Below, piece by piece: positions 15,670 to 52,434 of a stretch of 64,000 nucleotides of DNA (position 1 is its first letter; every line of letters begins with the position of its first letter). The notes beneath the pieces were generated by a model, which was not told where the DNA came from, made no database searches, and saw nothing but the letters and a program-made list of their open reading frames with translations. The position numbers were made by a program, and so were the translations under genes. Source of the stretch: Chiloscyllium plagiosum (lineage: Eukaryota); assembly GCF_004010195.1 (NCBI RefSeq), contig NC_057719.1, forward strand, positions 45,564,658 to 45,628,657, in the 5' to 3' direction.

Positions 15670-17108
15670 AAGAACATAAGAACTAGGAGCAGGAGTAGTC
15701 CATCTGGCTCTTTCAGTCTGTTCTGCTATTCAATAAGATGAGGCCTGATATTTTTGTGGCCTCAGCTCCACTTACTCACCCTCTCACCATGATCCTTAAT
15801 TTCTTTACTATTCAAAAAATTATCTATCTTAGTTATAAAAACATTCAATGAGGGATTCTCAACTACTTCACTGGGCAGGGAATTCCATAGATTCACAACC
15901 CTTTGGGTGAAGAGGTTCCTCTTCAATTCAGTCCTAAATCTGCTCCCTTTAATTTTGAGTCTATGCCCTCTTGTTCTAGTTTCACCCGCTGATGAAAATA
16001 ACCTCCCTGTTCGTAGCTTTTCTATTCCTTTCATAATTTTATGTGTTTGTATAAGATCCCCCCTCATTCTTCGATATTCCAATGAGTATTCCCAGTCTAC
16101 TCAGTCTCTCCTTATAAGGCAACCCCCTCAACTCCAAAATCAACCTAATGAATCTCTTCTGCACTGTCTCCAGTGCCACTACATCCTTTCTCAAGTAAGG
16201 AGACCAAAACGGCGCACATTATTCCAATGTGGAACTAACCAGTACCCTATACAGCTGCAGCATAACCTCTCTTCTTTTAAAGCTGAAAATGTGTTGCTGG
16301 AAAAGCGCAGCAGGTCAGGCAGCATCCAGGGAACAGGAGAATTGACGTTTCGGACACAAGCCCTTCTTCAGGATTCCTGAAGAAGGGCTTGTGCCCGAAA
16401 TGTCGATTCTCCTGTTCCCTGGATGCTGCCTGACCTGCTGCGTTTTTCCAGCAACACATTTTCAGCTCTGATCGCCAGCATCTGCAGTCCTCACTTTCTC
16501 CTCTCTTCTTTTAAACTCAATCCCTTTAGCAATGAAAGACAAAATTCCATTTGCCTTCTTAATTACCTACTGCACCTTCAAACCAATCTTCTCTGATTCA
16601 TGTACACGGACACCCAGGACCCTCTGCCCAACGGCATGTTTCAATTTTTTACCGTTCAAATAATACTGTTATTCCTACCAAAATGGATGACTTCACATTT
16701 ATTAACATTGTACTCCATCTGCCATACTTTTGTCAATTCACTTAAAGTATCTATGTTCCCCTACAAAGTTTCACATGCCTCTGCACACTTCGGTCTACCA
16801 CTCATCTTAGTGTCATCTGCAAACTTTGACACACTACACATGGTGCCCATCTCCAAATCATCTATGTAAATTGTGAGCAATTGTAGTCCCAACACTGATC
16901 CCTGAGGCATACCATTAGTCACCGATCACCAACTAGAAAAGCGCTCATTTATCCCCACTCTTTGCTTGCTATTAATTAACCAACTCTCTATCCACACTAA
17001 TCCTTGCCCGCAATACTGTGAACCTTTCTCTTATGCAGCACCCTTTTGTGTAGCACCTTGTCAAATAACTTTTGGAAATCCAGAAACACTACATTTCCTG
17101 GGTCCCCA
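15670..17108 (-). mobile_element. CR1 LINE ORF2 3' part
   Basis: Translates to VVFLDFQKLFDKVLHKR, RMRGDLIQTHKIMKG and FTQRVVNLWNSLP; tail begins agaacataagaactaggagcaggagtag. Confidence 0.92.
16282..16500. mobile_element. Penelope family 1 inverted-repeat (hairpin) insertion, hammerhead motif on both strands
   Basis: Two inverted arms meet at ...tcaggattcctga... 15-bp TSD ctctcttcttttaaa at 16267-16281 and 16501-16515. Confidence 0.9.
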
Positions 17109-17589
17109 AGGAACTTGTAGATAGCCACAAACAGTGTTAACCACAAGTGACTAAGAACCAGTGCCTCAGGAGATCTCAACCATCAGTGCAACAGTCATAG
17201 AAAACTCATAACTTATAGTATTGCTCACTATGCCCTGACAGTAGCTGTCAGACACTGTGGCCTTGAAATTTGTCACTTCTGCCTGCTTCCTAGGCCCAGC
17301 TGTGGATTTTGGTGGTATCTTACAAGGAGCTGCAGACCATTGCATTTCACAGGTCACTGACACCTCTTTGTAAGAGTTGGACAGTGCACTCATTTCACAA
17401 TTGGTGCAGATCTAGAAAGCAAAGGGCTTCATTAAAATCAAAACCCAAACAGCAGTGCAGCATCAACTCCACCCAAAGGGGGGAAGAGGTAAAGAAGCAA
17501 CAGCATAATTGTCTAAATGAAGTATATTGCAGTCTAGAGGGGTGAATTTGCATTTGCAGAATTGTATTTGCAGATATACTCAAAAAGCA

Positions 17590-17745
17590 CACAATCTGTA
17601 GGCAATCAATCCATGTGACATTTTATAAGTCCCTACTTTGGAAATATAATCAGTCTGACTCATGATCGGAATACATACAGACTCTAACCTCACACCTTTA
17701 ATGCATTGTCTGAACTGAGATGTCACTTTTTTTTAATAAAACCAT
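17590..17745 (+). mobile_element. Penelope family 2 3'-region fragment
   Basis: ctgaactgagatgtcacttttttttaataaaacc is the reverse complement of 53265-53300. Confidence 0.55.
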
Positions 17746-18429
17746 TTATAGACTCTATGTATCTCACTCTTCCTTCTACTACCTTTAAACTACCCAAATG
17801 ACATTAAAGGGGTCTTTTGGATTCCCTTTCATTCTAGCTGCCTGCCTCTGCTTTCTTCCTCAAATTTATTTTTCCTTTCTCTACTGTTAGCTGGTTCTCA
17901 CCAGACCTATGAACCCTTTACCTTACTGATTACATTTTAGTCCTCCAGGGAGCTCTGGGCTTAGTTGCCCTACCTTTCTGTGCCTCTCATGAGGTGCATC
18001 ATACTATATCTGAACTGTCTTCTCTTCAAAGGTAACCCTTTTAAAACAAAATAACCAACTGTTTGGATGTCTTCTGATACACCTCCATGAACATCACATC
18101 CTAATGAACCTGGACTTTCTGGCCAAGAGGTAGGAATACTACTACCATTCCGTCAGGGCTGTAGAAAATCCATTGTTTGCTTATCATTAGACCATCTTTG
18201 TAAGACATGAAAAACTAATCTATTCTTGTTACCTGAACCATGGTTCATAAATCACTTCACTGAAGAATAGCAGAAGGTCTATTTGTACTTGTACTTTCAG
18301 CATACTTTAACTTCTCCAGTCCACAATGCTTGGGACCAACAGCATAGCTGCTTGTTTCAAGTAACAAATTGCTGGACTGGAGAAGGTGGAATGTATAGGA
18401 TTGTGTTCCCCTTTCACTTTTAATAAAAT

Positions 18430-19518
18430 AGTCATAGAATCATAGAGTCATAGAGATGTACAGCACGGAAACAGATCCTTCGGTCCAACTCATCCATGCC
18501 AACCAGATATCCTTACCTAATCTAGTCCCATTTGTCAGCACTTGGGCCATATCCTTCTAAACCCTTCCTATTCATATACCCATCCAGATGCCTTTTAAAT
18601 GTTGCAATTGTACCAGCCTCCACCACTTCCTCTGGCAGCTCATTTCATGCACACACCACTCTCTGAGAGCTCTTTGGTCCCTTTTATATCTTTCCCTTCT
18701 AACCTAAATCTATGCCCTCTCGTTCTGGACTCCCCCACCTTAGGGAAACAACTGTCTATTTATCCTATACATGCCCCTCATGATTTTATAAACCTCTATG
18801 AGGTCACCCCTCAGCCTTCGACCCTCCAGGGAAAATAGCCCGAACTTATTCAGCCTCTCTCTATTGCTCAAATCCTGGCAACATCCTTGTAGATCTTTTC
18901 TGAACCCTTTCAAGTTTCACAAAATCCTTCTGATAGGAAGGAGATCAGAATTACACACAATATTCCAAAAGTGGCCTAACCAAGAGCTTGTACAGCCACA
19001 ACATGACCTCCCAACTACTGTACTCAGTACTCTAATCAATAAAGGAAAGCATACCAAACGTCTTCTTCACTATCCTATCTACCTGCGACTCTACTTACAA
19101 GGAGCTATGAACCTGCTCTCCAAGGTCTCTTTGTTCAGCAACACTCCCTGGGACCTTACCATTAAGTGTATAACTCCTGCTAAGATTTGCTTTCACAAAA
19201 TGCAGCAACTCGCATTTATTGAAATTAAACTCCATCTGCCATTTCTCAGCCCAGTGGCCCATCTGATCAAGATCCTCTTGTAATCTGAGGTAACCTTCTT
19301 CGCTGTCCACTACACCTCCAACTTTGATGTCATTTGCAAACTTACTAACCGTACCTCCTGAGTTCACATCCAAGTAATTTATATAAAGGACGAAAAGTAG
19401 TGAACCACCAATCTTTGTGGCACCCCACTGGTCACAGGCCTCCAATCTGAAAAACAACCCTCCACTACCACCCTCTGTCTTCCACTTCACAGCCAGTTCT
19501 CTATCCAACTGGCTAGTC
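18430..19518 (-). mobile_element. CR1 (HER1-like) LINE 3' 1.1 kb
   Basis: Minus ORF gives LFVLYINYLDVNSGGTVSKFAND and WAEKWQMEFNFNKCELLHF; (catagagt)n tail at 18430-18455. Confidence 0.92.
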
Positions 19519-19984
19519 ATTTTACAGTTTGTAATTTCCCATTGATTAATATTTTAGATAGAGTCATAGGACAGGCAATGAGCTTGGGAGGCAGTTGCAG
19601 CTACTAATTTATATAATGAAAAACCTCTCAATTTTTTCAGGGGCTAATTTTACTAGTGGCAGAACAGCCCCTGCTACTTTAGAATGCACCAACTTTATGG
19701 AAGCAAAGTAAATTGTCAGTCAGGTAAATTGGGAACTTTGGTTAGTTTGATTAAAATATTTTTTTCACATTTATGATGACTCCAAGAGTAGGGGCGGCTT
19801 GATTTCTAGTGCACACCTCCAGTGGGTTGTACAACTGTTTGCCACTTTTTTTATGTTTTCTAATGAAGTCATTGATCTGAAATGGTAACACTGTTTCTCT
19901 CCATAGATACTGCCAGACCTGTTAACTATTTGTGATCTTATTTCTTTTACAAGTCAAGGCTCTCTTCAGTTCTCTCCAAGTGCC

Positions 19985-22580: not shown

Positions 22581-23299
22581 GTCAGCATGTCCTGTCCAAT
22601 GATTTAATCCTTAATTTATGATTGAAGATTACTTACAATAAGTATTTCAATAATAAGTAATGTGTAAAATGTGTAATTAAGACTATTTATCTTTAAATGA
22701 CCCCTGCCAACCAAAACTGTAGAGTACTTTTAGAATTGACTCCAGTTAAACATAAAACTGAAATATTCCCTTGGTGGGAGAATGAATGTACAGAAACATA
22801 TCAAGAGCTATAATTATATATTTCTAACTGGATTGTCTGGTCCAATTTCCAACAGTAATGTCACTTCTTGCCTTCGCAGGTGGATTCCCTCAAGGTTATT
22901 TTTTCAAATGTTAATAAATTCAGATTTCTTAACTCTCTTTTGACATTCAGAGATTGCTGTCAGAGTTCAACTGTTCACATGAAAATAGTTCTCCTTTTAC
23001 AAGAAATTCAAGTGTCACAAACAACTTACAAACACACCCTCCTCAAGCTCAAATATGCTTACTCTGGTGAATCTTCGCGTACACTTCGGTAGAATGGACA
23101 CAGTACAAGTGGCAGGACTTGGCAACAGAAACAAAGGGCAGACCCCTTCGAGAATGGGAGATAGATAGAGGTTAGTTGGGCACCAATACAGGATTTGGGA
23201 ACTCTTTGGAAACAAGGTTCTACCTAGAGTAGCAATAAACGTGCTCATACTTGTCAGATTTCCTTAAGACAGCGTAAGTCATTAGCTGAGAATGGGAAC

Positions 23300-23512
23300 T
23301 GAAAAATGTGTTGCTGGAAAAGCGCAGCAGGTCAGGCAGCATCCAAGGAGCAGGAGAATTGACGTTTCGGGCATAAGCCCTTCTTCAGGAAGAAGGACTT
23401 ATGCCCAAAACGTCGATTCTCCTGTTCCTTGGATGCTGCCTGACCTGCTGCGCTTTTCCAGCAACACATTTTTCAGCTCTGATCTCCAGCACCTGCAGTC
23501 CTCACCTTCTCC
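23300..23512. mobile_element. Penelope family 1 hairpin insertion
   Basis: Inverted arms; intact minus-strand motif CTGAAGAAGGGCttatGCCCGAAACGTC. 17-bp TSD tagctgagaatgggaac at 23283-23299 and 23513-23529. Confidence 0.9.
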
Positions 23513-23684
23513 TAGCTGAGAATGGGAACCCCATTCAACTCATGCATGCAATAATGTCTATAATGGTTCATGGCTTTGAAAGCATGAACTCCTGCAATGA
23601 GAGAGCAACAACCTTATGGAGAGGCCTATGCATCAGCACACTGAGTTGTTGCAGGAAGCATACACTAATGTTTAGGAGCAGATC

Positions 23685-25249: not shown

Positions 25250-26200
25250 TCTGGAGGGTCATGTTAAGGAGAGCATGGGCAAACCACCTCAATGTCCAAA
25301 GTCTTCACATGAGGGTACTGCAAGGTGACACTGTTCCAGGCACCACCAGTGGTCCTTGTACAGATGGCCTTGGTCTAGTGCCTGTGTGGTTCTGTATCAG
25401 GGTGCCACAAATGGATGGGTTACCATTTATTTAAAAGTTAACCTTTGACTCCCAGATATTGGATGGAGTGAAGATCTGTGGCACTCTGGACCACTGGAAG
25501 CTGAAGAATTTAATATCCACTGGACATACATTAGCAGATAGATCTTCTGATCACAGAGAAACTGAAGATTGAGAGAATATAAATCCTTCCTGTTGAAGAA
25601 CTTCACTCGTGGGCCATTGGGTATCCCAGTGGCTACATGGGTACTAAAAATGACTTCCAGTATCTGGGTGAAAGTGAGGACTGCAGATGCTGGAGATTAG
25701 AGTCGAGAGTGTGGTGCGGGAAAAGCACAGCAGGTCAGGCAGCATCTGAGGAGCAGGAGAATCAATGTCTCGGGCAAAAGCCCTTCGTCCAGAATAAGGC
25801 TGTGAGCCGAGGGGGTGGTGAGATAAATGAGAGGGGGGTGCGACTGGGGGGGAGGTAGCAGAGAATGTGATAGGTAGATGGAGGTAGGGGTAATGGTGAT
25901 AGGTCGGAGAGGAGAGTGGAGCAGATAGGTGGGAAGGAAGATGGACAGGTTGGACAGATTGCACCTGGAGCAATCCATCAAAGATGGGGCCCATGTGTGA
26001 ATCATATACGCTGCCCTGCTCTCACATAAAGGGCATCAGTAAACTGTAATGGTGGGCAGTACACTGAGATACCACTGAGTCCCTCAAATGATCCTTGGAG
26101 GCATCTGTAAATAATGAAATTCATGGCTATTGGCTGGACTTGGCGATTGATGCATTCGTTATGAGATCTTCCAAGACAAGGTAACAAATCTCTGGTGGCA
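25250..26200 (-). pseudogene. Decayed PIF/Harbinger (HARBI1-like) DDE transposase
   Basis: Minus-strand pieces read EICYLVLEDL, QGSFEGLSGIS...TDALYVRAGQRI and STHVATGIPNGPRVKFFNRKDLYSLNLQFLCDQK. These resemble GSFQ, TDAL and IDCTHV..NRKGFHSLNVQLVCD. Split by a Penelope repeat at 25668-25975. Confidence 0.75.
25668..25975 (-). mobile_element. Penelope family 1 terminal repeat plus 3' region
   Basis: gaaagtgaggactgcagatgctggagattagag...gcccttcgtccag followed by a G-rich tract like that at 42780-42840. Confidence 0.8.
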
Positions 26201-27589: not shown

Positions 27590-28850
27590 GTAAATATAGG
27601 TTAAACTCTAAAATATACTTCTTATAATGTGTCACCTGAAACTATAGACAATACTGCAGCTGAGGTCTAACATGGGTCTTGTATAGCTTTCACATAACCT
27701 CCTTCCTTTTGCACTAATAAAGACCATATCTGCTTTATTAACTGCTCTCTTCACTTAGGCGAAAGTGAGGACTGCAGATGCTGGAGATTAGAGTCGAGAG
27801 TGTGGTGCGGGAAAAGCACAGCAGGTCAGGCAGCATCCGAGGAGCAGGAGAATCGATGTTTCAGGCAAAAGCCCTTCATCAGGAATGAGGCCTCTTCAAT
27901 TGTCCTGCCATGATCAGGGATCTGCGCATACATCCAGGTCTTCTGCTCCTGCACTCCCTTAAGTATTTCATCCCATACTTTATGTGGTCTGTCCATATTC
28001 TTCCTTCCAAAATATATTATCTCTCATTTCCTTGCATTGAACTTTATCTGCCACCTATTTACCTACACCACCATATATCTATGCTCTTTTTAGTGTACTT
28101 CTACACTACACTCCTCACATTTTATAATGCTTCCAAATTCATAGCATCCGCAAACTTTGAAATTGCTCCCTCCACATCAAGATCTAGGTTATTAATATGT
28201 ATCAGGAAGAGCAAGGTTCCCAATAACAACTCTAGTACAAACTTTCCTCAAGTCCAAAAAATATCTATTGACTATCACTTTCTGTTTCCTATTGCTCAGC
28301 CAATTTTGTGTCGGTATTGCTACTTTCTGCCTTATTCAATGACCAAGCATTTTTTTTCCCACAAGCCTGTTGTGTGGCACTGTATTGAACACTTATGCCA
28401 CCATACTCATCAACCTTTTCTATTACCTCTGCAAATACTTTGGCAAGTTAGTTTAACAAGATTTCCCCTTTCAAAATCCATGCTGTATCTTCCAAATCAA
28501 CCCACCCTTTTCCATGTAAGTCTATTTCTATTTTGTTCTGAATAAATGTTTTTATAAACTACCCCACCACTGAACTTAAACTGCTGAGCGTATTCTTACA
28601 ATATCTTTTGACTAAATCTAATCTTTGAATAAGTTTAATTTCTGCAATTCTCCTGTTTTCTGGCATCTCTCCCAAGTCAAGGGCAGATTGAAACAATATT
28701 TTCACTGGACTTTCTACTCTCACTTTTTTCAATATTCTTCAATGCATCTCATCCACTCCCAGTGCCTTGTGAACTTTCAATGTCAATAGCTTTGCAACAT
28801 TTTCTCCTTAACAATTTCAAATCTTTCTAGTGACAGAGCTTCTTCCTCTA
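27590..28850 (-). mobile_element. Old CR1 ORF2 fragment
   Basis: Antisense KFAD region (gcatccgcaaactttgaaatt) and YCLxF region; interrupted at 27757-27891. Confidence 0.75.
27757..27891 (-). mobile_element. Penelope family 1 terminal repeat with CUGAUGA hammerhead core
   Basis: Minus strand reads CTGATGAAGGGCttttGCCTGAAACATC; flanked by ctcttcactt / ctcttcaatt. Confidence 0.85.
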
Positions 28851-29072
28851 CAAAGCCATGCTGTCACAGCAGACAGCCACATAGCTGACACTCACTTGCA
28901 CAAACAACCCCATTTTCTCACCTGAGTCAGCGTTTAACCATCCGGCCACACAGTGTTCCTGTCCATAGTTAATTTCTGTTTGAATACCTTCTCTAGGTCA
29001 CCTCTACTCTGTCCTTAATGTCCACTGTAGACCAAACATCTGATCATTGTTCAGTAAGGATCATCCCATATA

Positions 29073-29261
29073 GGAGAAAGTGAGGTCTGCAGATGCTGGA
29101 GATCAGAGCTGGAAATGTGGTTGCTGGAAAAGCGCAGCAGGTCAGGCAGCATCCAGGGAACAGGAGAATCGACGTTTCGGGCTTATGCCCGAAACGTCGA
29201 TTCTCCTGTTCCCTGGATGCTGCCTGACCTGCTGCGCTTTTCCAGCAACACATTTCCAGCC
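29073..29261. mobile_element. Penelope family 1 hairpin insertion, centred on hammerhead stem II
   Basis: Symmetric around tcgacgtttcgggc-ttat-gcccgaaacgtcga. TSD atcatcccata(t/c)agg at 29060-29074 and 29262-29276. Confidence 0.9.
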
Positions 29262-29494
29262 ATCATCCCATACAGGCAAGCAATCAGGCAAATACAAACA
29301 CAAACATGAGCTTTTATTTCCAAGATGGCAGAAGTGGAGGAGCAGTGTCTGGGCTTCTCAGCCTAGGGCTCATCCATCCCATCTACTTTTTCTCTTTCTT
29401 TCTATTTTATTGTTCTTCTTCTCTCTTTTTCTAAGTTTTCTTTGTGTAGAAAACTTACTGTGGAATGGCAGTGATAGCATTGGAGTGGCTGAGG

Positions 29495-30305
29495 TTGGAG
29501 CAGAGTGGGATGGGATGGCCAGCAGGCTGGAAGCCTGAGCAGAAAGGGACAGCAGCAGGCTGAGAGGCCTGAGCAGAGCAGAGTGAAGTGGGAAGGCCAG
29601 CAGGCTGGAGGCCTGAGCAGAGCAGAATGAGACACCCAGCAGGCTGGAGGCCTGAGCAGAGCGGAGTGGGATAGCCAGCAGGCTGGAGGCCTGAGCAGAG
29701 CAGAGAGGGACAGTCAGCGGCCTGGAGGCCTAAGCAGAGCGGAGTGGGATGGACAGCCAGCAGGCTGGAGGATTAAGCAGAGCAGAGTGATACCAGATGG
29801 CCAGCAGGCTGGAGGCCTGAGCAGTCGGGACGGGATGGCCAGCAAGCTGGTGGCTTGAACAGAGCGGGACGGGATGGCCAGCAGGCTGGAGGCCTGAACA
29901 GAGCGGGATGGGATGGGAGGCAGAGCAGAGCTGAGTGGGACAGCCAGCAGGCTGGAGGCCCGAGCAATGCAGAATGGAGCAGGAGGGGAAGGCCAACAGG
30001 TTGGAGGCCCGAGCAGTGCGGAATGGAGCAGGAGGGAATGGCCAACAGACTGAAGGCCTGAGCAGAGCAGAGCGGACAGCCAGCAGACTGGAGGCCTGAG
30101 CAATGCGGAATGGAGAAGGAGGGGAAGGCCAGCAGGCTGGAGGCCTGAGCAGAGCGGGATGGGATGGGACGGCCAGTAGGCTGGAGGCCTGAACAGAGCA
30201 GGATAGGATGGGACGGCCAGCAGGCTAGAGGCCTAAGAAGAGTGGGACAGGACGGCCAGCATCCTGCAGGCCTGAGCAGAGTGGGGTGGAATGGGACAGC
30301 CAGCA
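29495..30305. repeat. GC-rich minisatellite, ~35-50 bp unit, about 20 copies
   Basis: Constant core gccagcaggctggaggcctgagcagagc separated by variable purine-rich linkers. Confidence 0.95.
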
Positions 30306-30325
30306 TACCAGGAGCGGAGCAGGTA

Positions 30326-30868: not shown

Positions 30869-31335
30869 TATATTTTCTTCGAAGCCAAAACAATTTCACT
30901 TTTAATAAAACATACTTGGTAGATCATATCCATCAGACAGCTCCAAACTAGACAGAGTGTAAAATGTCTCCAAACATTGTGAAGTATATTCCAGAGAATA
31001 GTTCCTTTCTTGCACCTTACACCTTTTTTCACTTTATTGTGAAAGCATCAACCCTCTCTCCCCCTCTATAATGAACTTAATTTTATTCTTTCTAGGCACT
31101 GTTTTGTGGATCCTGAGTGAATTAAAAACTTCAGTGTGTGCCAATTGTTTTGTCTGCAGGAACAATGGAGATTTCAAACAAAATGTAAACAGCCAGAGTT
31201 ACGTTGATTGTGGATTTGCAGTTTTCAGTCAGACAGGGAAGCAGTGTGTAGATTGCTGAAATCGGGGGATGTGGGCAGGATGTCCATCTTGCCTCCCATT
31301 CACTCACACCCTTGCCCCATGTAGATGGGGACAAC

Positions 31336-31975
31336 CTGAGCTCAGCCCCCCAATACCAGCTCCCCCCAAAGCTGGGGGGACCAGCCTGGGCTCAGACCCT
31401 AACATGAGCTCCCCCCAAAGCTGAGGGGACCAGCCTGGGTTCAGACCCCAACACCAGCTCCCCACAAAGCTGGGGGGACCAGCCTGGGCTCAGACCCCAA
31501 CATGAGCTCCCCCCAAAGCTGAGGGGACCAGCCTGGGTTCAGACCCCAACACCAGCTCCCCACAAAGCTGGGGGAACCAGCCTGGGTTCAGACCCCAACA
31601 GCAGCCCCCCCCCAAAGCTGAGGGGACCAGCCTGGGCTCAGACTCCAACACCAGCTCCCCCCAAAGCTGGGGGGACCAGCCTGGGTTCAGACCCCAACTC
31701 CAGCTCCCCCCAAAGCTGGGGGGACCAGCCTGGGCTCAAACCCCAACACCAGCTCCCCCCAAAGCTGGGGAGGGAGAACAGCTTGGGCTCAGACCCCAAC
31801 AGCAGCTCCCCCCAAAAGCTGAGGGGACCAGCCCGGGCTCAGACCCCAACAACAGCTCCCCCCAAAACTGGGGGGACCAGCCTGGGCTCAGACCCCAACA
31901 CCAGCTCACCCCAAAGCTGGGGGGACCAGCCTGGGATCAGCCCTCCCAAAGCTGGGGGTACAAGCTGGGGCTCTG
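31336..31975. repeat. ~49-bp minisatellite, about 12 copies
   Basis: Unit ccccaacaccagctccccccaaagctggggggaccagcctgggctcaga. Confidence 0.95.
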
Positions 31976-35432: not shown

Positions 35433-35847
35433 GAATCTATGTCTGGAAAGATGGTGCAAAAGAGAAGGTTTTAGATTTTTGGGAGATTGGGATTGGCTCT
35501 GGGGAAGATGACACCTATACTTGTGGACCATTTAGCTGTTGCTATTGGGAGGATTTCAAACTAACTTAGATGTGATGTGGAAATCAAGAGAGAATATTGG
35601 AGAGGGATACCAGGGTATACAAAATACTTGGAGAGGCAGATAGCCCTAATATAGAGAATAGAAAGTAAATGGGTGTAATAAAGTAATGAAGTTAAAATTT
35701 TAAAAAGGATACAGTTAAAATTGCTTGGTGTAGAATATAGACAATCAACCGGAGGAACAAATCCTCAAGGCAATTACAGAAAGATGTCATTGTATTGTTG
35801 TAATTGTGTACTTTAACTATCCAAATGTAGGCTGGAACAGTATTTCT

Positions 35848-36062
35848 AGGAGAAAGTGAGGACTACAGATGCTGGAGACCAGAGTTGAAAAATGTGGTGC
35901 TGGAAAAACACAGCAGGCCAGGCAGCATCTGAGGAGCAGGAGAATCGACTTCGGGCATAAGCCCTTCTTCAGGAAGAAGGGCTAATGCCCGAAACGTCGA
36001 TTCTCCTGCTCCTCGGATGCTGCCTGGCCTGCTGTGTTTTTCCAGCACCACATTTTTCAACT
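35848..36062. mobile_element. Penelope family 1 hairpin insertion
   Basis: Inverted arms. 16-bp TSD ctggaacagtatttct at 35832-35847 and 36063-36078. Confidence 0.9.
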
Positions 36063-36987
36063 CTGGAACAGTATTTCTGTTAAGAATAGAAATGCTCCTG
36101 GATTAATGCTCCAAGGAAAGTTTCCTACAGCACAGTTTGCCCAGTCTAACTAGAAAAGATGCATGGTTGGGCTTGGTTCTTGAAGTTGAAGCAGGCTAAG
36201 TAGATCAGTTTAAGAGACTGTGATCACTGGATCATAAGATTTAATGTGATGATAGTAAAGCACAACAGACAATGCAGAGTATAAATAATTAATAATTAAT
36301 TGTAGACAACTGGCTTCATAAGGAGCTAAGACAGGCAAATTGGAGTAAAATATTGATTAGGAAAACTGCAGCTGAATGATGGGTGACCTTCAAAGAGAAG
36401 ATGGTTCTGGTATGGTCAAAGTATATTTCCTTAGAGGAAAGGAAGGGCAGACAAATCTAGAGCTCCTGAGTGAAAATTGTTATAGAAATGAACATGAATA
36501 AGAAAAAAAAGTGTGCTTATGCAATTGAGAACTGAAACTGGTGAAACAAGTGATTTGATGGTGGTTTAATTAAAATAAAACAAAATGACTTCTCCACACA
36601 GTGCCTAGTATATTAAAGCTTTGAGAAAGAACAGGGCACCATGGGGCTGGAGTGCATTATCTTCCCTTCCAGCACTATTTTCAATTAACCCCTTCTTCTT
36701 TCCTTATCCTTCCTCTATTTATGATGCTGTTGCATTGCCCCAAGTGGGCCATGATTGTTAACTGTTGTATGCTTTAAATTGTTAACTCGGTGATGTAGTG
36801 GTGGATGTCAACAAAAAAAAGCTGCTTTCCTCTCAACTGAAGCATTGTTTGCTGGACAGGGAAAAGTTGTAGAAGGAAAGATGGAAACTGATGTTTATTT
36901 TAAACAATAGATTAACAATAAAGCTCTTGTAAATCTTTGAAGGTCTTTGCCTCCTAATTTAACATATTTTTATCAGCATAAGAAACG

Positions 36988-42631: not shown

Positions 42632-43085
42632 GAGGTAAAAACAATGACTGCAGATGCTGGAAACCAGATTCTGGATCAGTGGTGCTGGAGGAGCACAGCA
42701 GTTCAGGCAGCATCCAAGGAGCTTCGAAATCGACGTTTCGGGCAAAAGCCCTTCATCAGGAATAAAGGCAGTGAGCCTGGAATGTGGAGAGATAAGCTAG
42801 AGGAGGGTAGGGGTGGGGAGGAAGTAGCATAGAGTACAATGGGTGAGTTGCCACATTGATGCCCTGGGGTTGAAGTGTTCCGAGGCGGAAGATGAGGCGT
42901 TCTTCCTCCAGGTGGTGAGTGAGCGGCGGTGAAGGAAGCCCAGGACCTCCATGTCCTCGGCAGAGTGGGAGGGGGAGTTGAAATGTTGGGCCACGGAGCA
43001 GTGTGGTTGATTGGTGCGGGTGTCCCGGAGATGTTCCCTAAAGCGCTCTGCTAGGAGGCGAGCTGAGTCCTTGTGGTTCTTGAAA
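42632..43085 (-). mobile_element. Penelope 3' end: GIY-YIG C-terminal fragment plus terminal repeat with hammerhead
   Basis: Minus ORF AQHFNSPSHSAEDMEVLG...HFNPR is followed on the same strand by CTGATGAAGGGCttttGCCCGAAACGTC. Confidence 0.88.
42729..42763 (-). ncRNA. Minimal type I hammerhead ribozyme motif (family 1)
   Basis: CUGAUGA-A-GGGC(uuuu)GCCC-GAAA-CG-UC; palindromic ACGU replaces a full stem III. Activity is not shown. Confidence 0.7.
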
Positions 43086-43865
43086 TGCAGTGGTAGTGTC
43101 CCTACCTCTGTATTGCAAGAAGTGAGTTGAAGTCCCGCTTGCTCTGAACGGTTTGATCAAAAAATGAGTTGACTTCTTAATTCAATTATGTAACTAGTGA
43201 CAGGTGATATGGTGGTAGTTTATGGAAACAAATGCTGAGTTCTTTACCAATGGGATGCTGGTTTCTGGGGTAGGGAAAGAATCCAGAAGGGAAGAATGGA
43301 AACTGATATTTGTGCTAAACTGTAGATTTATAGTAAAAACCCTATAAAATTATGAAAGTCTTTTGCTCACGAATGTGTTACAAAGCTTTTTTTCTAAAAG
43401 CTGTTTCTTTTCTCAAGGATACTGTGTCCTTGGTTTTTATCAGAGTAATTGTAAACAGCTCCCAGTTCCAATTAGATTGGTTTGGTAAGGAGATTAAAGA
43501 GTATTGAGAGGCCTTTTTGTTTATACGTAAACAGATAAGACTTCAGGCCAAAGTGGTCATGTTTAGAAGTGACATGTATAATGAAAGAGGAGTGGTCAGC
43601 TCTCTAGCTGAGCAGTTCAATCCAGAACTAGTTAGGAGTTCAGCTGTGTGAAACCAGGCTACAAAACTCTGTCTCTCTTCTTCTGCCCTTCTAACTTCAA
43701 CCTGTAAGCATTTGTTCCATTTTTGCTGTTTTTTAAGGGCGTTTGCTTATTGGGACTGTTGTGAGGAAATGAGAGATAATTACAACAGTAGCTCAGCATT
43801 TAAACTTGTTGGTGAAACCATCAGAATCTATAGAGATGTCAAGAATTTGATTGCAAATGAAGCAG

Positions 43866-44091
43866 AGCTGAAAATGTGTTGCTGGAAAAGCGCAGCAGGT
43901 CAGGCAGCATCCAAGGAACAGGAGAATCGACGTTTCGGGCATAAGCTCTTCTTCAGGAATCTGAAGAATTTCGGGCTTATGCCCGAAACGTCGATTCTCC
44001 TGTTCCTTGGATGCTGCCTGACCTGCTGCGCTTTTCCAGCAACACACTTTCAGCTCTGATCTCCAGCACCTGCAGCCCTCACTTTCTCTCA
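43866..44091. mobile_element. Penelope family 1 hairpin insertion in the gag region
   Basis: Inverted arms. 14-bp TSD tgcaaatgaagcag at 43852-43865 and 44092-44105. Confidence 0.9.
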
Positions 44092-44229
44092 TGCAAATGA
44101 AGCAGCTTGAGTTAGAGGTAAGAGATAAGGAAAGGGAGCAGAAATAAAACAGTTTGAGTTACAGTTAGAAGCAGGAGAGGGAAAAAGGGAGAGCTTTTGA
44201 ACACCAGAAACTGACACTTAAATAAGAAA

Positions 44230-44617
44230 AAGTGAGGTCTGCAGATGCTGGAGATCAGAGCTGGAAATGTGTTGCTGGAAAAGCGCAGCAGGTCAGGCAG
44301 CATCCAGGGAACAGGAGAATCGATAATAGGAGCAGGAGTAGGCCAAAAGATCAGCAAGGTAGCCTATGTGTGGAATCGCAGGAGATGGAGGCGATTCTAA
44401 ATAAGTTTTTTGCATCGTGTTTACTGTGGGGAATGAAGATATAGATTGTGGGGAATAAGATGGTGCCCCTCCCCCAAGTCCCTCCTCCCTACCTTTTATC
44501 TTAGCCTGCTGGACAAACTTTCCTCATTTCTGAAGAAGGGCTTATGCCCGAAACGTCGATTCTCCTGTTCCCTGGATGCTGCCTGACCTGCTGCGCTTTT
44601 CCAGCAACACATTTCCA
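44230..44617. mobile_element. Penelope family 1 inverted-arm insertion enclosing a CR1 fragment
   Basis: Arms 44230-44322 and ~44465-44617; middle translates KDQQGSLCVESQEMEAILNKFFAS (CR1 ORF2-like). 14-bp TSD acttaaataagaaa at 44216-44229 and 44618-44631. Confidence 0.85.
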
Positions 44618-45691
44618 ACTTAAATAAGAAAGTCAGCTTAAAAGCCTCGAGATAAACGCTGAAGGTAATAATAATGAGGAAGTAGTGCAAACTCATGTGG
44701 AAGAGCAAAGATTTAAAATGACAATGCGTAGCAGCTGAAGTGGCTGATGATTATGAGCTGGTGCATAAAACACGGTTTGGCTTCCAGAGTGAATGTCAGC
44801 CCATGAAGGATAGAAATTGGGGCAAAGAGAAATCCTCACGTGGAAAGGGAAAGGTAAATCTCAGTGAAGATCATTAGGATAACTTACCATAGAGTAAAAA
44901 GGAAACCCTTGAAGGGGACAAAGAAGGTAAAATAATCCGGTGGTTTCATTGTAACAAAGTGGGCCACGTGAAATCACAGTGTTTGTGGGCTAGGAGAAAG
45001 CCAGATATAGGAAACCTGGACAAGCCTAGAAGTTTTGTTGGCATGGTAACAGAAAGCACAGTGGAGACTAGAAAGCTGCATCAGAGTGCACAAGCTGATC
45101 ACAGGTTGATTAAGGAGGAGGTGCTAGATCTTCTTAAAAAATATACCTCGAAAGGTAAGATTTAGTCACAAAAGTCAGGAGTCGCAGGTAAAGACATTAC
45201 AATATTATGGGACACAGGATCGTCTCAGTCTGTAATGCTAAAGGATGAGGAGATATGTACTCCTAGGGACTATTGCCAGAAAATGTGCTGGTAACATGAA
45301 TTCATGGGAGACAAAACGCACTCAGTTATATAAAGTGAGGCTAGAGAGTCCAGAGAAGAGTGGAGAATTTGTGGTAAGAGTACTAGACAAACAGTCAGCT
45401 TCAAGAATACAATTTGTCCTTGCAAATGATATAGCTGATTCACCAGTAGGTGTGCTGCCTACTCTAGTTGAAAAGCCAGCAGAGACACAGGCAACTGAAG
45501 AAATTAAGGATGTTTATCCAGGAATTTTCCCAGATTGTGTGGTTACAGATCACAGAGGCACAGCTGAAGCAGGAGAGGTCAAAAGACACAGATAAGGAAA
45601 CTGACATAGCTTTATCTGAGACTTTTTTGATCAGATAAGTGGGACAAAGTAGGAGCATCTAGGTAAATATACAAGTATCTTTAGCTCTGCT

Positions 45692-46900
45692 GTGCGTATT
45701 GGGTTACAGCAGAAAGATGAGTACTTAAAGCAGTTACATCAAAAGGCATATACAGAAAAGGAGACTGAATGCATCCTTGTGTGTTATTACTTAACAAATG
45801 ATGTCTTAATGAGGAAATGGACACCATCATACATTCAAGCAGATGAGAAATGGGCAGAGATTCATCAAATTGTTTTGCCAGTAGGATATAGAAAAGAGGT
45901 AGCACATGAGCTATTACTTGGAGGTCAATTAGGGGTGTGGAAAACACAGGCTAAAATACAAAGACATTTTTATTGGCCTGGTCTACACAAGGATGTAGTT
46001 GAATTCTGCCAGACATACCATACGTGTCAACTAATTGGAAAACCACAGGCAGTAATAAAACTTGCACCTTTAATGCGTATTCCAGCATTTGAGGAACCTT
46101 TCACAAGAGTCCTGATTGATTGCATAGGTCCTCTACCTCAAACAAATAGAGGGATTAAGTACTTATTAACAATAATGGATGCATCGACTAAATTTCCAGA
46201 GCTAATCCCAATTCACAACATCGCAGCTAAAAGGGTTGCAGAAGAATTAGTTACATTTCTTACGAGATACCAATAGAGGTCTGGTCAGATCAAGGATCAA
46301 ACTTCACATCCAAACTATTCAAGGAGGTTATGGATAACTTGGGAATAAAGCAATTCAAATCTACTGCATATCATCCAGGGTCACAGGGAGCACTAGAGAG
46401 ATGGCATTAAACATTAAAGACCATGGTGAGGGCCTATGGTCAGGATTACCCAGATGATTGGGATAAGGGAGTTCTGTTTGTACTTTTTGCCATCAAAGAT
46501 GCACCAAATGAATCAACCAAATTCAATCCATTTGAAGTAATGAAGTAGGAGGACCATTAAAATTGATTAAGGAGAAATTAATAAGTCAGAATTCAGAAAC
46601 CACCCATTGGGACTATGTGTCAAATTTTAGAGAACGATTAAATAGAGCTGGAGAGTTGGCTCAACAGCATTTAAAAGTACCACAGCATACAATGAAAAGG
46701 AAGTGGATAAGATATCACAAATTCGCAATTTTGCTATTGGGGATGTGTTATTGGTGTTACTTCCAGTAATTGGTGAACCTTTAAAAGCAAGGTTTTAGTG
46801 GACCTTATCAAATCGAGAGGAAATTGAGTGAGGTAAACTACTTGATAAAGACGACAGACAGGAAGAAATCTCAGAGAGTGTGTCATGTGAATATGCTCAA
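45692..46900 (+). pseudogene. Integrase domain of the Gmr1-like element, disrupted
   Basis: AHE..GQLGVWKT..FYWPGLHKDVVEFCQTYHTCQ, LIDCIGPLP, SDQGSNF, and a GPY motif at ~46800. Confidence 0.9.
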
Positions 46901-47099
46901 AAGGTATTTTGATAGGGAAGGAAAGCAAGAGGAGAAGGTGTTAATGATCGCTGCACAGAAGGAAGAACCAAGTTCAGAGGATTATGAATTGGACATTCCT
47001 CAAATCAAATTGGACAATGAGGAAGTTGTAAAACAATTGGGATAAATTAAAGAGTTACCTTCCACAAGAAAATTGAAATGACCTGACAGAGTTATTACT

Positions 47100-48395
47100 A
47101 TCACATGGGGAGATACGCGGAAATAAACTGGGACATACTAACCTAATTGTGCATGATGTAGAGATAAGAGATGGTGTTCTGATTAAGTAACATCCTTATA
47201 GGCATAACCCTCCAAAGTTGGCACAGGTTCAATCTGAGATAGAGTGCATGCTCCAAGATGGCATAATCAAAGTGAGTTACAGTGTTGGAGCTCACCCATA
47301 GTCATGGTCCCAAAGCCAGATGATACCCAACATTTGTGTTTAGACTATTATAAAGTCAATGCCGTTACATAGCCTGATGCATATCCAATTCCACGGTTGG
47401 AGGACTGTGTCAAAAAAGTGGGACAAGCAACTTACATTTCTCAGTTGGACTTACTCAGAGGCTACTGGCAAGTACCTCTGTCAGAGAGAGCAAAGGCAAT
47501 TTCAGCTTTCGTTACGCCAAATAGACTAAATCAGTTCAAAGTCATGCCATTTGTTATGAAAAATGCTCCAGTCACATTTCAGAGACTGACTAATATGGTC
47601 ATTGCCGGAGAACCCAACTGCGTGGTGTATATTGATGACCTGGTGGCTTTTAGTCACTCATGGAGGGAACATTTAAGGCATTTATTGGACTTGTTCAATC
47701 AACTTCGGAAGGCAAGCTTGGTGGCAAACCTAGCTAAACGTGAACTTGCCAAAGCCAAAGTCACCTTCCTGGGCCATGTTATTGGACATAGACAAATTGC
47801 CCCATGGGATGAGAAAATGAAAGTAATTGGGAATTTCCTACACGGTCAATGTAAAAAGCAGTATTACGGTTCCTGGGATTTTACCGAAAGTTAGTGCATA
47901 ACTTTAGCAGTATGGCTGCTCCACTCACCGAATTGTTAAAAAAGGGCAAGAAGTTTCAGTGGACAGTGGACTTTCAAAAGACATTTGACAGCCTAAAGCC
48001 TTAACCACTGCCTCAGTATTAGCCACACTGGATTACACAAAGCCTGTCAAGTTGGCTATCGATGCCAGTGATGTGGGTATTGGTGCAGTGCTCCTGCAGG
48101 ACAATGAAAAGGGAATAGAAAGACCCATCTGGTATTTCTCCAGGAAGTTGAATGTTCATCAACAGAAATATTCAATGGTGGAGAAAAAGACTTTAAGCTT
48201 GGAGTTGGCAATACAAATTTCAATGTTTATATACGTATACACTGATCATAACCCATTGACATTTGTTGAAATAATTTAAGAACAGAAATGCCAGACTGTT
48301 TAGATGGAGCTTGTTATTGCAGCCATTCAATTTGCCAATTGTGCACATGGCAGGTTGCGAAAACGTGATTGCCGATGTGTTATTGAGACTTGAAT
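47100..48395 (+). pseudogene. RT and RNase H of the Gmr1-like element, disrupted
   Basis: LDLLRGYWQVPL, VMPFVMKNAPVTFQRL, YIDDL, VTFLGH, YFSRKL, ENVIADVL. Confidence 0.92.
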
Positions 48396-49219: not shown

Positions 49220-50130
49220 ATTGGGACATGAGACATTAGAACTTGATGTGCAAAAGACAATTTCAAAGTTTGCAGATGTTAGAAAACTTGGAAGCATTGT
49301 AAACAGTGAGGTGGATGGTGTGGAACTTCAAAAGAATATAGACAAATTGATGTTAGATTCAATTCAACGTGAAGAAGTGTGAAATGATATGTTTTGGCAG
49401 TAAGAACATGGACAGACAGTATAATACTTAAGAAAGTGCTGGAGCAGAGGAACCTGGGTGTATATGTTCACAGATCACTGAGGGTGACTGGTCAGGCAGA
49501 CAGCAGTTAATAAAGCAACCAATATCCTGAATCTTTATTAATAGGCGGCACAGTGGCTCAGTGGTTAGCACTGCTGCCTCACAGCACCAGGGATCCAGGT
49601 TCAATTCCTGCCTTGGGCAACTGCCTGTGTGGAGTTTGCACATTCTCCCTGTGTCTGCGTGGGTTTCCTCCGGGTGCTCCGGTTTCCTCCCACAGTCCAA
49701 AGATGTGCAGATTAGGTGAATTGGTCATGCTAAATTGCCCATGGTGTTGGGTGTAGGGGAGTGGATCTGGGTGGGTTGCTCTTCAGAGGGTTGGTGTGGA
49801 CTTGTTGGACCGAAAGGCCTGTTTCCACACTGTAGGGAATCTAATAGCAGCATAGGATACAAGAAGCAAGGGACCACAGTTGGAGTTTATATACAATCTG
49901 GAGCACCATACACTATAGGAAAAGTGTAAACACTTTGGAGAAGTTGCACAAGAAATTTACAAGAATGGCTTCAGGAATGAGAACCTTTGATTATGAGGAT
50001 AAATTGGAGAAATTTGAACTGCTCTTGTTGCTTGGACAAGGCTAAGATGAGATCTGATTGAATTTTTCAAAATCATGAGAAGTTTGGTAAGAGTAGAAAG
50101 GGAGGAACTGATGCCATTCGTTTAAGGATT
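49220..50130 (+). mobile_element. CR1 ORF2 fragment
   Basis: Translates to ISKFADVRKLGSIVNSEVDGVELQKNIDKL; interrupted by a HE1 SINE. Confidence 0.85.
49544..49842 (+). mobile_element. HE1-type SINE, well preserved
   Basis: A box tggctcagtggttagc, B box ggttcaattcc, CR1-like tail; flanked by the short duplication taatag. Confidence 0.92.
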
Positions 50131-50211
50131 CACTATAAAGTATTTCATGCCTAATCTGACTCCAAGGGATTAGATTCATGCTCTTGCTTTCTCCAATTTT
50201 TAGTATTTTAA

Positions 50212-50502
50212 AGGGTGGCACAGTAGCTCAGTGGTTAGCACAGTTGCCTCCCATTGCCAAGGAACTGGCTTCAATTCCACCCTGGGTGACTGTGTGGAGT
50301 TTGCACGTTCTCCCTGTGTCTGTGTGGGTTTCCTCCAAGTTCTCTGTGGTCTCCTCCCACAAAGCTGTGCCAGCTAGGTGGATTAACCACAGGAAATGCA
50401 GGGATAGGGTAGTGGAGTGGGTATGGGTGGGATGGTCTTCAGAGGGTAGGAGTTCACTCAGAAGGGTGAATGACCTGCTTCTACACTGTAGGGGATCTAT
50501 GA
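50212..50502 (+). mobile_element. HE1-type SINE
   Basis: Same head, core and tail. Confidence 0.85.
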
Positions 50503-52205
50503 TAAAGATAAAATCATTAAAATTTCTTCATAAACTTTGAATTTATCATTCAAGCCATGGAAATAATAAACATTTAATTGATTTCACTGTTGGAGACTGA
50601 TACTCAAATTGTAATAACCATTTGTATTCTTAATTACTTTTTTTTTCCAATTAATTTTATTTTAGTCTCTATCTGAAAAATTATCTTAACTTCCTGGTAA
50701 CTTTTCCATTAAGTAAATATGTCAGAAATTTCTTAACTCACTATTTGAAATTTTAACTGGGCTCTGCAGCACATTTTTTGGGTGAAAGTGAAATGTTTTA
50801 TGCCCTTCCCTTAAGAGATTGTATTTGCTAAGGGCTTCCAATAATTGACGTCTTTCCTGAGGTACTTGACTTAGACTTCATCCTGAAGCTGCATGGGGCT
50901 TTTTCTGTTTTCACTATGTTTTTTAGCGGTTGTTTCTCTCTTGCAGTCTGTGAAACTCTTTTGTCATTGAGAATTGCAGTTTTTCTGGTTGTTTCTCCGA
51001 AGGAGTTTCTATTTATAGATGTTTCCTCCGTAGCCACAGAGGCTTTTCAGGTCTGTGGCTTTTTTTAACTTCTGCTGGTTTTAAAGCTGAAGTTAAAATT
51101 ACTTCTTAAAAATTCTTCTATTCTCTATGTACACACAAGTCTTTTTTTAATGTGTTCTGCACCACAACTTTCTTTGCAGTCAATCCTGCCATTGCACCAT
51201 CTTCCATCTTGTGTTTTTGTGCCACATCTGGGAGATTTGAGCAAATGGACTGCCGTGGTACAAAGTGGCAGATTACTGCAACCTTCTCAAGCGCAATTAG
51301 GGATGGGCAATAAATGCCTGCCCAGTCAGGGAAGCCCAAGTCCCACAAATGAATTGTAAAAATCTCTGTGTCATCCATGGCTTGTGCAGGTTGATCATGT
51401 CTGGTCTCTCACCACATATGGATCCAGCCTTTGTTATCATCTAACGATATTACTATCTGAGTTGGTGGCTCTGTGTGAGGTTAAATTATGGTGTTTCTTC
51501 TTTATTGTTGTCATCTTGTTGGTCCAACACTGCCTGGGTGCCTGAATGGAGAAATGCAGAAGAGGACATTTTGATGAGGACAGCCAGGGAGTATGCAGGA
51601 GTCATTTACTTATGCCAGTTTTGAATCAGAAGAGATTGCAGAATGAGGGGCGTGTAGGGTGTGGGAAGGAGGAATAGGTCTTCCATTATATCACCCTAAT
51701 CATTAACAATGGTCTTAGCTATGGCCATTTCAATGAAAGTACCAAGTTAAAAATGACACAACACCAGGTACTTGGGTTCATGTCACACTACAGGTGACCA
51801 GCAATGCACTATACACACAGATACTCCTACACACACGCACTCCTATATACACATACAAACACAGACACACATCTACACAGACATGCACATAGACACACAC
51901 ACACACCCTTACAGACACACACACTCCCACACTCATACATGCACCCCCTCACAGACTTATAAGACACTCTACACTCACATACACACATACATACACTCTC
52001 TCTCACACTCACAATCCACCAACCCAGACAGACAGACAGATACACACACACACGCACACAAAGACCCACGTGCACACATACACATATACGTTTGTGGGGT
52101 GAATTTGTACTTGCAGAGTTACATTGTACTTTGCTCAAAAACTGCATGAATTCATGTAAGACTGTTATCTCAATGTTTGGATTAGAATCAGTCTAAACAT
52201 TATGG

Positions 52206-52434
52206 TCATGATTCGGAGATGCCGGTGTTGGACTGGGGTGTAGAAAGTTAAAAATCACACAACACCAGGTTATAGTCCAACAGGTTTAATTGGAAGCACA
52301 CTAGCTTTCGGAGCGTCGCTTCTTCATCAGGTGATTCATCACAACCACCTGATGAAGGAGCGTCGCTCTGAAAGCTGGTGTGCTTCCAATTAAACCTGTT
52401 GGACTATAACCTGGTGTTGTGTGATTTTTAACTT
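52206..52434. mobile_element. Penelope family 2 hairpin insertion
   Basis: Inverted arms, each with CTGATGA..GAAAGC. 12-bp TSD taaacattatgg at 52194-52205 and 52435-52446. Confidence 0.88.

What the first reader, a model, noticed from the sequence alone, without database searches (positions are those of the whole stretch)
16282..52434. Recurrent ~190-230 bp fold-back insertions with long target-site duplications
Seen: at 16282, 23300, 29073, 35848, 43866 and 52206 the insert is only two inverted terminal-repeat arms. Each is flanked by its own 12-17 bp duplication. One arm is complete and the other lacks its outer ~20-35 nt. The fold-back point differs per copy but falls in or beside the hammerhead motif. 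Inference: each is an independent, abortive Penelope integration in which synthesis folded back or switched strand near the ribozyme, rather than a fixed MITE. They would form ~75-100 bp dsRNA stems in any overlapping transcript.
Basis: partly seen in the sequence, partly recalled or inferred. Interest (0 to 1): 0.72.

Follow-up and report, generated by a model that had tools for sequence, protein, structure and literature searches.

The report
Head-to-head Penelope retroelement stubs, shark
These short mirror-image insertions are real. They are the known "inverted end plus tail" footprint that Penelope-like jumping genes leave when they land, most likely made by copying the element's RNA end twice, once from each cut DNA strand, so the pattern is largely ordinary.

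Summary
Real, and a known kind. All 6 listed inserts, plus a 7th at 44230-44617, are head-to-head ends of Penelope-like elements (PLEs) with 11-17 bp target duplications. In each, exactly one arm carries a 33-38 nt tail. A related copy at 42633-43117 runs into PLE GIY-YIG coding sequence. Inverted ends, tail and TSD are published PLE features, and the scan noted such inserts before elsewhere in this genome.

Two claims need changing:
- Hammerhead cleavage does not set the turn: 13 of 14 arms run past the predicted cut.
- One plain cDNA snap-back cannot make 6 of 7 centres: in 5 the tail-less arm reaches deeper, and 1 has a 1-nt loop.

Best reading: twin priming. Both nicked target strands copy one RNA from its two start sites, and the cDNA ends join by microhomology. 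The stops cluster at a probable RNA 5' end just upstream of the ribozyme.

Against it: in two unrelated families from metagenome contigs the tail arm is deeper in 23 of 30 cases, as snap-back predicts. Empty sites, editing and local transcription were not shown.

The parts
16266..16515 (.). Family A insert 16282-16499 with 16 bp TSD (16266-16281, 16500-16515). Tail-less arm on the left (sense on -), tail arm on the right (sense on +). Arms reach -2 and -4 relative to C3 of the hammerhead core; 1-nt centre.
23283..23529 (.). Family A insert 23300-23512 with 17 bp TSD. Tail-less arm left reaches -3, tail arm right starts at +2; 3-nt overlap at the centre.
29060..29272 (.). Family A insert 29071-29261 with 11 bp exact TSD. 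Tail arm left stops at +16, tail-less arm right starts at +8; joined through the 4-bp stem II. No catalytic core left.
35832..36078 (.). Family A (other subfamily) insert 35848-36062 with 16 bp TSD. Tail arm left reaches -3, tail-less arm right starts at +2; same centre as 23300 but tail on the other side. Contigs of a related organism also run into both arms.
43852..44105 (.). Family A insert 43866-44091 with 14 bp TSD. Tail-less arm left reaches -4; centre 43961-43972 holds two extra short templated pieces (sense 0..+7, antisense +23..+20); tail arm right starts at +8.
44216..44631 (.). Seventh insert (not in the finding), 44230-44617 with 14 bp TSD. Tail arm left stops at about +26 (the only arm near the predicted cut), then about 140 nt of foreign repeat DNA (44324 to about 44465), then the tail-less arm, which reaches at least -62.
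52194..52446 (.). Family B insert 52206-52434 with 12 bp TSD. Tail arm left reaches -3, 6-nt spacer, tail-less arm right starts at -9. Own minimal hammerhead core at 52349.
722..884 (-). Single-arm family A copy (736-870) with tail and a 14 bp TSD (1 mismatch); 5' end at about -3.
42633..43117 (-). Longer copy of a related subfamily (arm 80% identical to family A): 3' end of GIY-YIG coding sequence, 3' UTR, hammerhead core at 42759, terminal repeat and tail. Links family A ends to an RT + GIY-YIG element.
52533..52820 (+). Longer single copy of family B (upstream region, core at 52699, tail); used to read family B positions. Its 5' limit is approximate.
63685..63936 (+). PLE coding fragment (cysteine-rich linker and start of GIY-YIG), 80% identical to P0001 residues 294-377, ending at the N gap.

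Best explanation
The inserts are dead-on-arrival integration products of Neptune-type Penelope-like elements (about 0.95 for that identity; the confidence given is for the mechanism). Steps: (1) Inferred from the TSDs: the element's GIY-YIG endonuclease nicks both target strands 11-17 bp apart. (2) Inferred; both-strand nicking and extension and two RT start sites were shown in vitro for an anole PLE: each nicked strand primes a cDNA on the same RNA, one at the tail end and one about 35 nt further in. (3) Shown here: both copies pass the predicted hammerhead cut, so the template was uncut RNA, and most stop within a few bases of the ribozyme's 5' edge. Inferred: that edge is the RNA's 5' end. 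(4) Shown as sequence pattern, enzyme inferred: the two cDNA ends join through 1-4 nt of microhomology, sometimes after brief snap-backs or capture of other sequence. (5) Gap filling gives TSD, inverted arm, centre, arm, TSD. This is L1-type twin priming with a near-complete internal duplication and a fixed second start.
For: Exactly one arm has the tail in 7 of 7 window inserts and in 34 of the 35 uncut loci among 39 of two unrelated families; the other has none, none has two, and one locus is listed twice. Tail-less arms end within a few bases of one site (+85 to +89 in family A). The tail-less arm reaches deeper in 5 of 7, and 16282 has a 1-nt loop; a single strand copying itself gives neither. 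The clearest case is 44230, where the tail-less arm is at least 88 nt deeper across foreign DNA. Both arms of a locus share variants (4 of 720 permutations; 4 of 120 without the divergent copy). Target letters continue the element at tail-less junctions, 10 letters over 7 junctions, P = 0.0016. 7 of 61 metagenome head-to-head loci have zero-loop centres. Many contigs of two public runs leave the element at -3/-4 into unrelated sequence (82 and 216 in X5, 263 in X9). Literature: both strands nicked and extended, two RT starts bounding the tail, ribozyme cleavage not needed (PMC11167929); L1 twin priming gives internal duplications and templated switches (10.1101/2024.08.27.596794).
Against: In the two metagenome families the tail arm is the deeper one in 23 of 30 informative loci (P = 0.005 against 50:50; ties, cut loci and one duplicate dropped), which is the snap-back direction. 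Several of their centres (L022, L025, L043) read as true snap-backs. A later flip of the centre between the arms would mimic 'tail-less arm deeper' and was not excluded. Zero-loop centres in short-read contigs may be assembler products. Junction microhomology is also expected from end joining after a snap-back. The anole study saw no strand preference for either RT start, which does not by itself give exactly one tail per insert. n = 7 in the window; 5 of 7 does not differ from 50:50 (P = 0.45). No empty site was shown. The RNA 5' end is inferred: the one raw RNA run showed no pile-up of starts.
Confidence: 0.58

Rival explanations
1. Snap-back of a single cDNA. One cDNA starts at the tail, runs to the RNA end, folds onto itself and is copied back to about 35 nt short of its start. 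Some centres are flipped later by recombination between the arms.
For: Tail arm deeper in 23 of 30 informative metagenome loci. Snap-back-like pieces in the centres of 43866 and of L022, L025, L043. One tail per insert and shared variants follow naturally. Turns use built-in hairpins (stem II at 29073, a 3-bp hairpin at 23300 and 35848).
Against: Needs a later flip in 5 of 7 window inserts, including two whose arm cores are identical or nearly so (29073, 44230) and one with a spacer of over 200 nt. 16282 has a 1-nt loop. It needs a separate cause for the fixed stop of the second arm, whereas two RT starts have been shown in vitro.
Confidence: 0.27
2. Self-priming on an antisense transcript, as proposed for rotifer PLEs, makes the palindrome before or during integration.
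For: Proposed in PMC3846280 to explain head-to-head junctions with palindromes (passage). RNA reads of both orientations lie on the arms, though these come from other loci.
Against: It does not explain why both outer ends match fixed sense-RNA start sites, nor foreign DNA between arms of unequal depth (44230).
Confidence: 0.05
3. A self-copying palindromic lineage (MITE-like, or a non-autonomous retro-unit) that keeps its centre.
For: 2 of 7 share a centre. Some head-to-head joints recur at summed depths of about 500-1700 against about 15 for unique DNA in public contigs, so certain centres are in many copies.
Against: Six different centres among 7 inserts. The two that share one differ at 6-10 arm positions and carry the tail on opposite sides. 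TSD length varies 11-17 and the ends are asymmetric, unlike DNA-transposon MITEs (general knowledge). The shared centre sits on a 3-nt microhomology, so it can recur.
Confidence: 0.05
4. Hammerhead self-cleavage fixes the turn: RT runs off the cut RNA.
For: One arm (44230, tail arm) stops within 2 nt of the predicted cut. Three of 7 inserts keep one arm with an intact-looking core.
Against: 13 of 14 arms extend 12 nt or more 5' of the cut. In vitro, uncut RNA is the main substrate and ribozyme mutants still insert (PMC11167929).
Confidence: 0.03
5. Assembly artefact.
For: Palindromes are hard to assemble. No listed contig spanned a whole insert, and no long reads were available.
Against: TSDs at all 7, one-sided tails, 0-4 independent differences between the arms of the six family A inserts, head-to-head joints in contigs of three independent runs including a related organism, and the same build in unrelated families.
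Confidence: 0.02

Closest known systems
Insertion architecture of endonuclease-bearing Penelope-like elements: inverted 5'-truncated copy, 30-40 bp tail at one end, TSD (PMC8557442 and PMC3846280, passages read)
   Same: Head-to-head inverted terminal repeats, tail on one side only, TSD, palindromes at the inverted junction, and capture of unrelated DNA between repeats.
   Different: Here nothing but the two ends is inserted (190-230 bp). TSDs are 11-17 bp against the 8-10 bp seen in the rotifer passages. Seven lie in 64 kb.
Anole Poseidon element PAc in vitro (PMC11167929, parts 1-2 of 4 read, supplements not read)
   Same: Two RT start sites bounding the tail, both target strands nicked and extended, uncut RNA used as template, hammerhead near the start sites.
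   Different: Different clade (P0001 has a cysteine-rich RT-EN linker, the Neptune/Nematis trait). The parts I read do not derive inverted insertions from double priming.
Minimal type-I hammerheads of metazoan PLEs (PMC4209133, parts 1-2 of 4 read)
   Same: Core with an extra base before stem II, G10.1-C11.1, no real stem III and a 4-nt palindrome for dimer formation. That paper already notes pairs on opposite strands 100-700 bp apart.
   Different: No shark is named in the parts read. Here the pairs abut, and most copies have lost or split the core.
L1 twin priming with internal duplication and template switching (10.1101/2024.08.27.596794, passages read)
   Same: Two target-primed cDNAs on one RNA joined by microcomplementarity, with an inversion, a duplicated stretch when the first cDNA passes the second primer, and extra switched pieces.
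   Different: In L1 the second primer anneals at variable places and duplication is seen in 17% of inverted insertions. Here the second start is nearly fixed, duplication is the rule, and there is no poly(A).
Metazoan non-LTR retrozymes (PMC7229834, passages read)
   Same: Short non-coding repeats with type-I hammerheads, probably moved by PLE machinery.
   Different: Retrozymes are head-to-tail repeats whose RNA unit is set by the ribozyme cut. These inserts are head-to-head and ignore the cut.

Membership tests
EN+ Penelope-like element insertion | Terminal repeat belongs to an element coding RT and C-terminal GIY-YIG | tested here: met
   Family A: the related copy at 42633-43117 is contiguous with sequence matching P0001 residues 359-441 (E 5e-27), and P0001 has weak RVT_1 and GIY-YIG hits, both below Pfam's cut-offs. 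The link is through a subfamily 80% identical to the arms.
EN+ Penelope-like element insertion | Same ORF link for family B (52206) | tested here: inconclusive
   tblastn of P0001 found no coding sequence beside family B copies in the window; family B is assigned by build and hammerhead only.
EN+ Penelope-like element insertion | Minimal type-I hammerhead in the terminal repeat | tested here: met
   Motif scan, compared with the features in PMC4209133. No Rfam hammerhead match. Cleavage not assayed.
EN+ Penelope-like element insertion | 30-40 bp tail at one end only | tested here: met
   7 of 7; about 33-38 nt.
EN+ Penelope-like element insertion | Inverted 5'-truncated copy head-to-head, whole unit inside a TSD | tested here: met
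   7 of 7.
EN+ Penelope-like element insertion | Empty orthologous site with one copy of the TSD | tested here: inconclusive
   One lay covered 3 of the 7 inserts. 35848 appears shared with the related organism; no empty-site joint was among the 15 of 3532 joints shown.
Neptune/Nematis clade | Zn-finger-like linker between RT and EN | tested here: met
   Cysteine-rich linker read by eye in P0001 and at window 63730-63790; trait from PMC8557442. No tree was built, so Neptune versus Nematis is not resolved.
MITE (DNA transposon derivative) | Symmetric terminal inverted repeats, fixed short TSD, uniform interior | tested here: not met
   Asymmetric ends, TSD 11-17 bp, six different centres in seven. 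Definition from general knowledge.
Metazoan retrozyme | Head-to-tail repeats with a unit defined by the ribozyme cut | tested here: not met
   Head-to-head; 13 of 14 arms pass the cut.
Metazoan retrozyme | Abundant circular RNA | not testable with these tools
   The only raw RNA run laid was a poly(A) single-cell library.

The most novel reading that the evidence does not exclude
Twin priming is the normal integration route of endonuclease-bearing PLEs. One RNP primes both target strands at the element's two RT starts, and most events use the start sites near the RNA's own 5' end, so both cDNAs run off after 90-130 nt and are joined into a palindrome. The stubs would then be complete run-off products that map the element's transcript start (an ATTC/TCATTC motif at the limit in family A and in both large metagenome families), not random truncations. 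Their large number in shark genomes would make the unsolved origin of PLE inverted repeats countable.
Probability: 0.35. Interest if true: 0.55.

Novelty: new member of a known kind. Interest (0 to 1): 0.3.

Why it matters
The structure itself is published, so as an object it is ordinary. What remains of value is mechanistic. How PLEs make their inverted repeats is stated to be undefined (PMC8557442), and these minimal, very frequent copies give a simple sequence test: which arm is deeper, which has the tail, how long the loop is. That test separates twin priming from snap-back, and it gave opposite trends in the shark window and in two unrelated families. If such palindromes occur about once per 9 kb across the genome, as in this window, they would be a large source of potential cruciform DNA and of dsRNA in introns, but neither effect was shown here.

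Tried and rejected
No whole genome is held, so no genome-wide count was possible. The shark arm pattern found nothing in viral or metagenome contigs. Rfam gave only miRNA-hairpin and other sub-threshold matches caused by the palindromes; rejected.

Run search: no RNA holder listed. The RNA run (about 2% read) had no depth in unique bins and no start pile-ups. A>G and T>C places (27, 28) matched two same-species DNA runs (27/25 and 26/25), which says nothing about editing at these loci because the reads come from other copies.

A splice acceptor as the cause of the 5' limit, as in D. virilis, was considered: no AG lies directly before the limit in family A or B. ATTC at the limit is not universal: it is absent in family B and in the small L011/L103/L109 family. 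It could also be an endonuclease ATT site or the edge of helix I.

The metagenome pattern forces centres near the core (spacer up to 25 nt), so those loci cannot show that turns prefer the ribozyme. Of 115 loci, 61 had head-to-head arms of 40 nt or more, 39 fell in two families, and 30 were informative after dropping 3 ties, 4 cut, 1 tail-less and 1 duplicate. TSDs were recovered in only 6 of those 39. TSD search at six single-arm copies found one (739). The host gene of the window was not identified.

Paper searches listed no paper whose title or abstract start applies twin priming to PLEs or describes these shark stubs. The library lacks most subscription papers, and supplements of PMC11167929 (Fig. 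S2, genomic ends) were not read and may bear on this.
Full report
Observation. The six named inserts exist as described: inverted arms of 63-102 nt, lengths 191-229 bp, exact TSDs of 16, 17, 11, 16, 14 and 12 bp. Random site pairs gave such a repeat in 87 of 20000 trials. Five belong to one repeat family (A) and 52206 to another (B). A seventh, 44230-44617, has a 14 bp TSD and about 140 nt of foreign DNA between its arms. A single-arm copy at 736-870 also has a TSD. In each of the seven, one arm carries about 33-38 extra outer bases.

Identity. Both families carry a minimal type-I hammerhead core with the traits listed for metazoan PLEs in PMC4209133 (parts 1-2 of 4 read). Rfam listed no hammerhead among 15 matches. 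A related copy at 42633-43117, 80% identical over the arm, continues into coding sequence. That peptide found one protein among 11 candidates, P0001, 91% identical and labelled by its source as a Chiloscyllium punctatum protein. P0001 has weak RT and GIY-YIG hits below Pfam's cut-offs and matches window 43117-42861 and 63685-63936. Its cysteine-rich linker fits the Neptune/Nematis type (PMC8557442, passages); no tree was built. The window is therefore probably from a bamboo shark or a close relative (inference). Family B has no ORF link in the window and is assigned by build. An inverted truncated copy, a 30-40 bp tail at one end, a TSD, junction palindromes and DNA captured between repeats are all described for PLEs (PMC8557442, PMC3846280, PMC8969392; passages).

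Independent events, not a MITE. The arms of one locus are closer to each other than to other loci (4 of 720 permutations; 4 of 120 without the divergent 35848). There are six different centres among seven. The shared one (23300, 35848) sits on a 3-nt microhomology, in different subfamilies, with the tail on opposite sides. Some joints recur at high summed depth in public contigs, so small self-copying lineages elsewhere are not excluded.

Where the arms stop. Positions count from C3 of the core, with the predicted cut between +27 and +28, and are given as tail arm / tail-less arm: 16282 -4/-2; 23300 +2/-3; 29073 +16/+8; 35848 -3/+2; 43866 +8 (with extra pieces)/-4; 44230 about +26/at least -62; 52206 -3/-9. 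So 13 of 14 arms pass the cut and 9 of 14 stop between -9 and +2. The template was uncut RNA, which agrees with the anole PLE in vitro (PMC11167929, parts 1-2 of 4). In public contigs many copies of the related subfamily leave the element at -3/-4 into unrelated sequence: 82 and 216 loose ends in X5 and 263 in X9, among the 24 of 6696 rows shown. An ATTC motif lies at the limit in these two and in family A, but not in family B or a third small family. I read the limit as the RNA's 5' end. The resemblance to an initiator is recalled, not tested. Penelope of D. virilis has an internal promoter with an initiator (PMC2377424, passages). An endonuclease ATT site or the edge of helix I are alternatives.

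How the mirror is made. A single cDNA that folds back owns the spacer and cannot yield a copy longer than itself, so the deeper arm must be the tail arm. In the window the tail-less arm is deeper in 5 of 7, and 16282 has a 1-nt loop; only 35848 fits, with a 2-nt loop. Two target-primed cDNAs, one from each RT start, joined at their 3' ends, explain all seven. They also explain the fixed end of the tail-less arm and the overlap of target and element at that junction (10 letters over 7 junctions, P = 0.0016). The anole protein nicks and extends both strands and starts at two sites that bound the tail. L1 twin priming yields duplications when the first cDNA passes the second primer, and extra switched pieces like those at 43866 (10.1101/2024.08.27.596794, passages).

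Evidence against. Their hosts are unknown. They show the same one-tail build, so it is general and not shark-specific. But the tail arm was deeper in 23 of 30 informative loci (P = 0.005; Fisher test against the window's 2 of 7, P = 0.025), and some centres read as true snap-backs. Seven of the 30 still had the tail-less arm deeper, several by only 1-3 letters, and 7 of 61 had zero-loop centres. These are short-read contigs selected for an intact core on both arms. A later flip of the centre would rescue snap-back in the window and was not excluded. I put twin priming at 0.58 and snap-back at 0.27; both may operate.

Reality and expression. Contigs of two same-species runs and one related organism run from unique flank into the arms of 35848 (9-30 letters inside, short of the tool's 31-letter rule), so this copy seems shared. 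Head-to-head joints occur in all three DNA runs. No empty site was shown. All seven inserts are predicted to form long hairpins on either strand (-154 to -203 kcal/mol), which would bury the ribozyme. The one RNA run showed no depth in unique flanks, and 95% of its laid reads ran on into other loci. The dsRNA and editing idea is therefore untested.

Verdict. Real; a shark example of a published PLE insertion pattern, also noted in several earlier findings on other pieces of this genome (unchecked AI notes, not counted as support). Retrozymes differ in orientation and unit (PMC7229834, passages). Seven paper searches listed nothing that, by title or abstract start, applies twin priming to PLEs. 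The added value is the deeper-arm test and its split result. Interest 0.3.

Noticed in passing
window 44324-44465: Foreign DNA inside the seventh insert. Its first 19 nt match a repeat at 15684-15702, and a 50-nt part matches 13851-13802 at 70%. One frame resembles a CR1-type LINE ORF2 stretch (recalled, not tested).
   Followed up: partly
window 42763 joined to 43867 and 44229 in public contigs: Joints in all three DNA runs link an arm's -4 end straight to the start of another arm in the same orientation, with or without tail. This suggests head-to-tail multimers of the unit elsewhere in the genome, as from RT jumping to a new template after run-off.
   Followed up: no
L001-L115 (metagenome contigs): At least three unrelated families build the same head-to-head stubs with one tail. 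Centres of L022, L025 and L043 hold short templated snap-back pieces; L011, L103 and L109 share one perfect palindromic centre.
   Followed up: partly
window 45653-47894: Integrase zinc-binding and RT domains (Pfam E 8e-14 and 4e-22) in separate frames; a broken LTR-type retroelement, probably Gypsy-like (label recalled).
   Followed up: no
window 63685-63936: PLE linker and GIY-YIG fragment that ends at the 41-base N gap; the element may continue in the gap.
   Followed up: partly
window 25666-25960, 27757-27890, 58521-58655: Older single-arm family A relatives, all with tails; 5' ends at about -7/-8 in two and far upstream in one. No TSD found.
   Followed up: partly
window 2000-2130, 58900-59020, 61860-61965: A third, more diverged terminal-repeat subfamily; a hammerhead-like core at 61956 on the minus strand.
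   Followed up: no
window 52992-53400: Older family B relative with several internal inverted matches to 52533-52685 and to itself (I12-I14); may be a longer, decayed head-to-head insertion.
   Followed up: no
window 29498-30305 and 31327-31940: GC-rich minisatellites with periods of about 39-49 bp.
   Followed up: no
window 54739-55336: Inverted pair of another repeat, 74-82% complementary, 330-510 nt apart.
   Followed up: no
window 18842-18942: Weak U6 snRNA match on the minus strand (E 0.49, below gathering); possibly a decayed retrocopy or chance.
   Followed up: no
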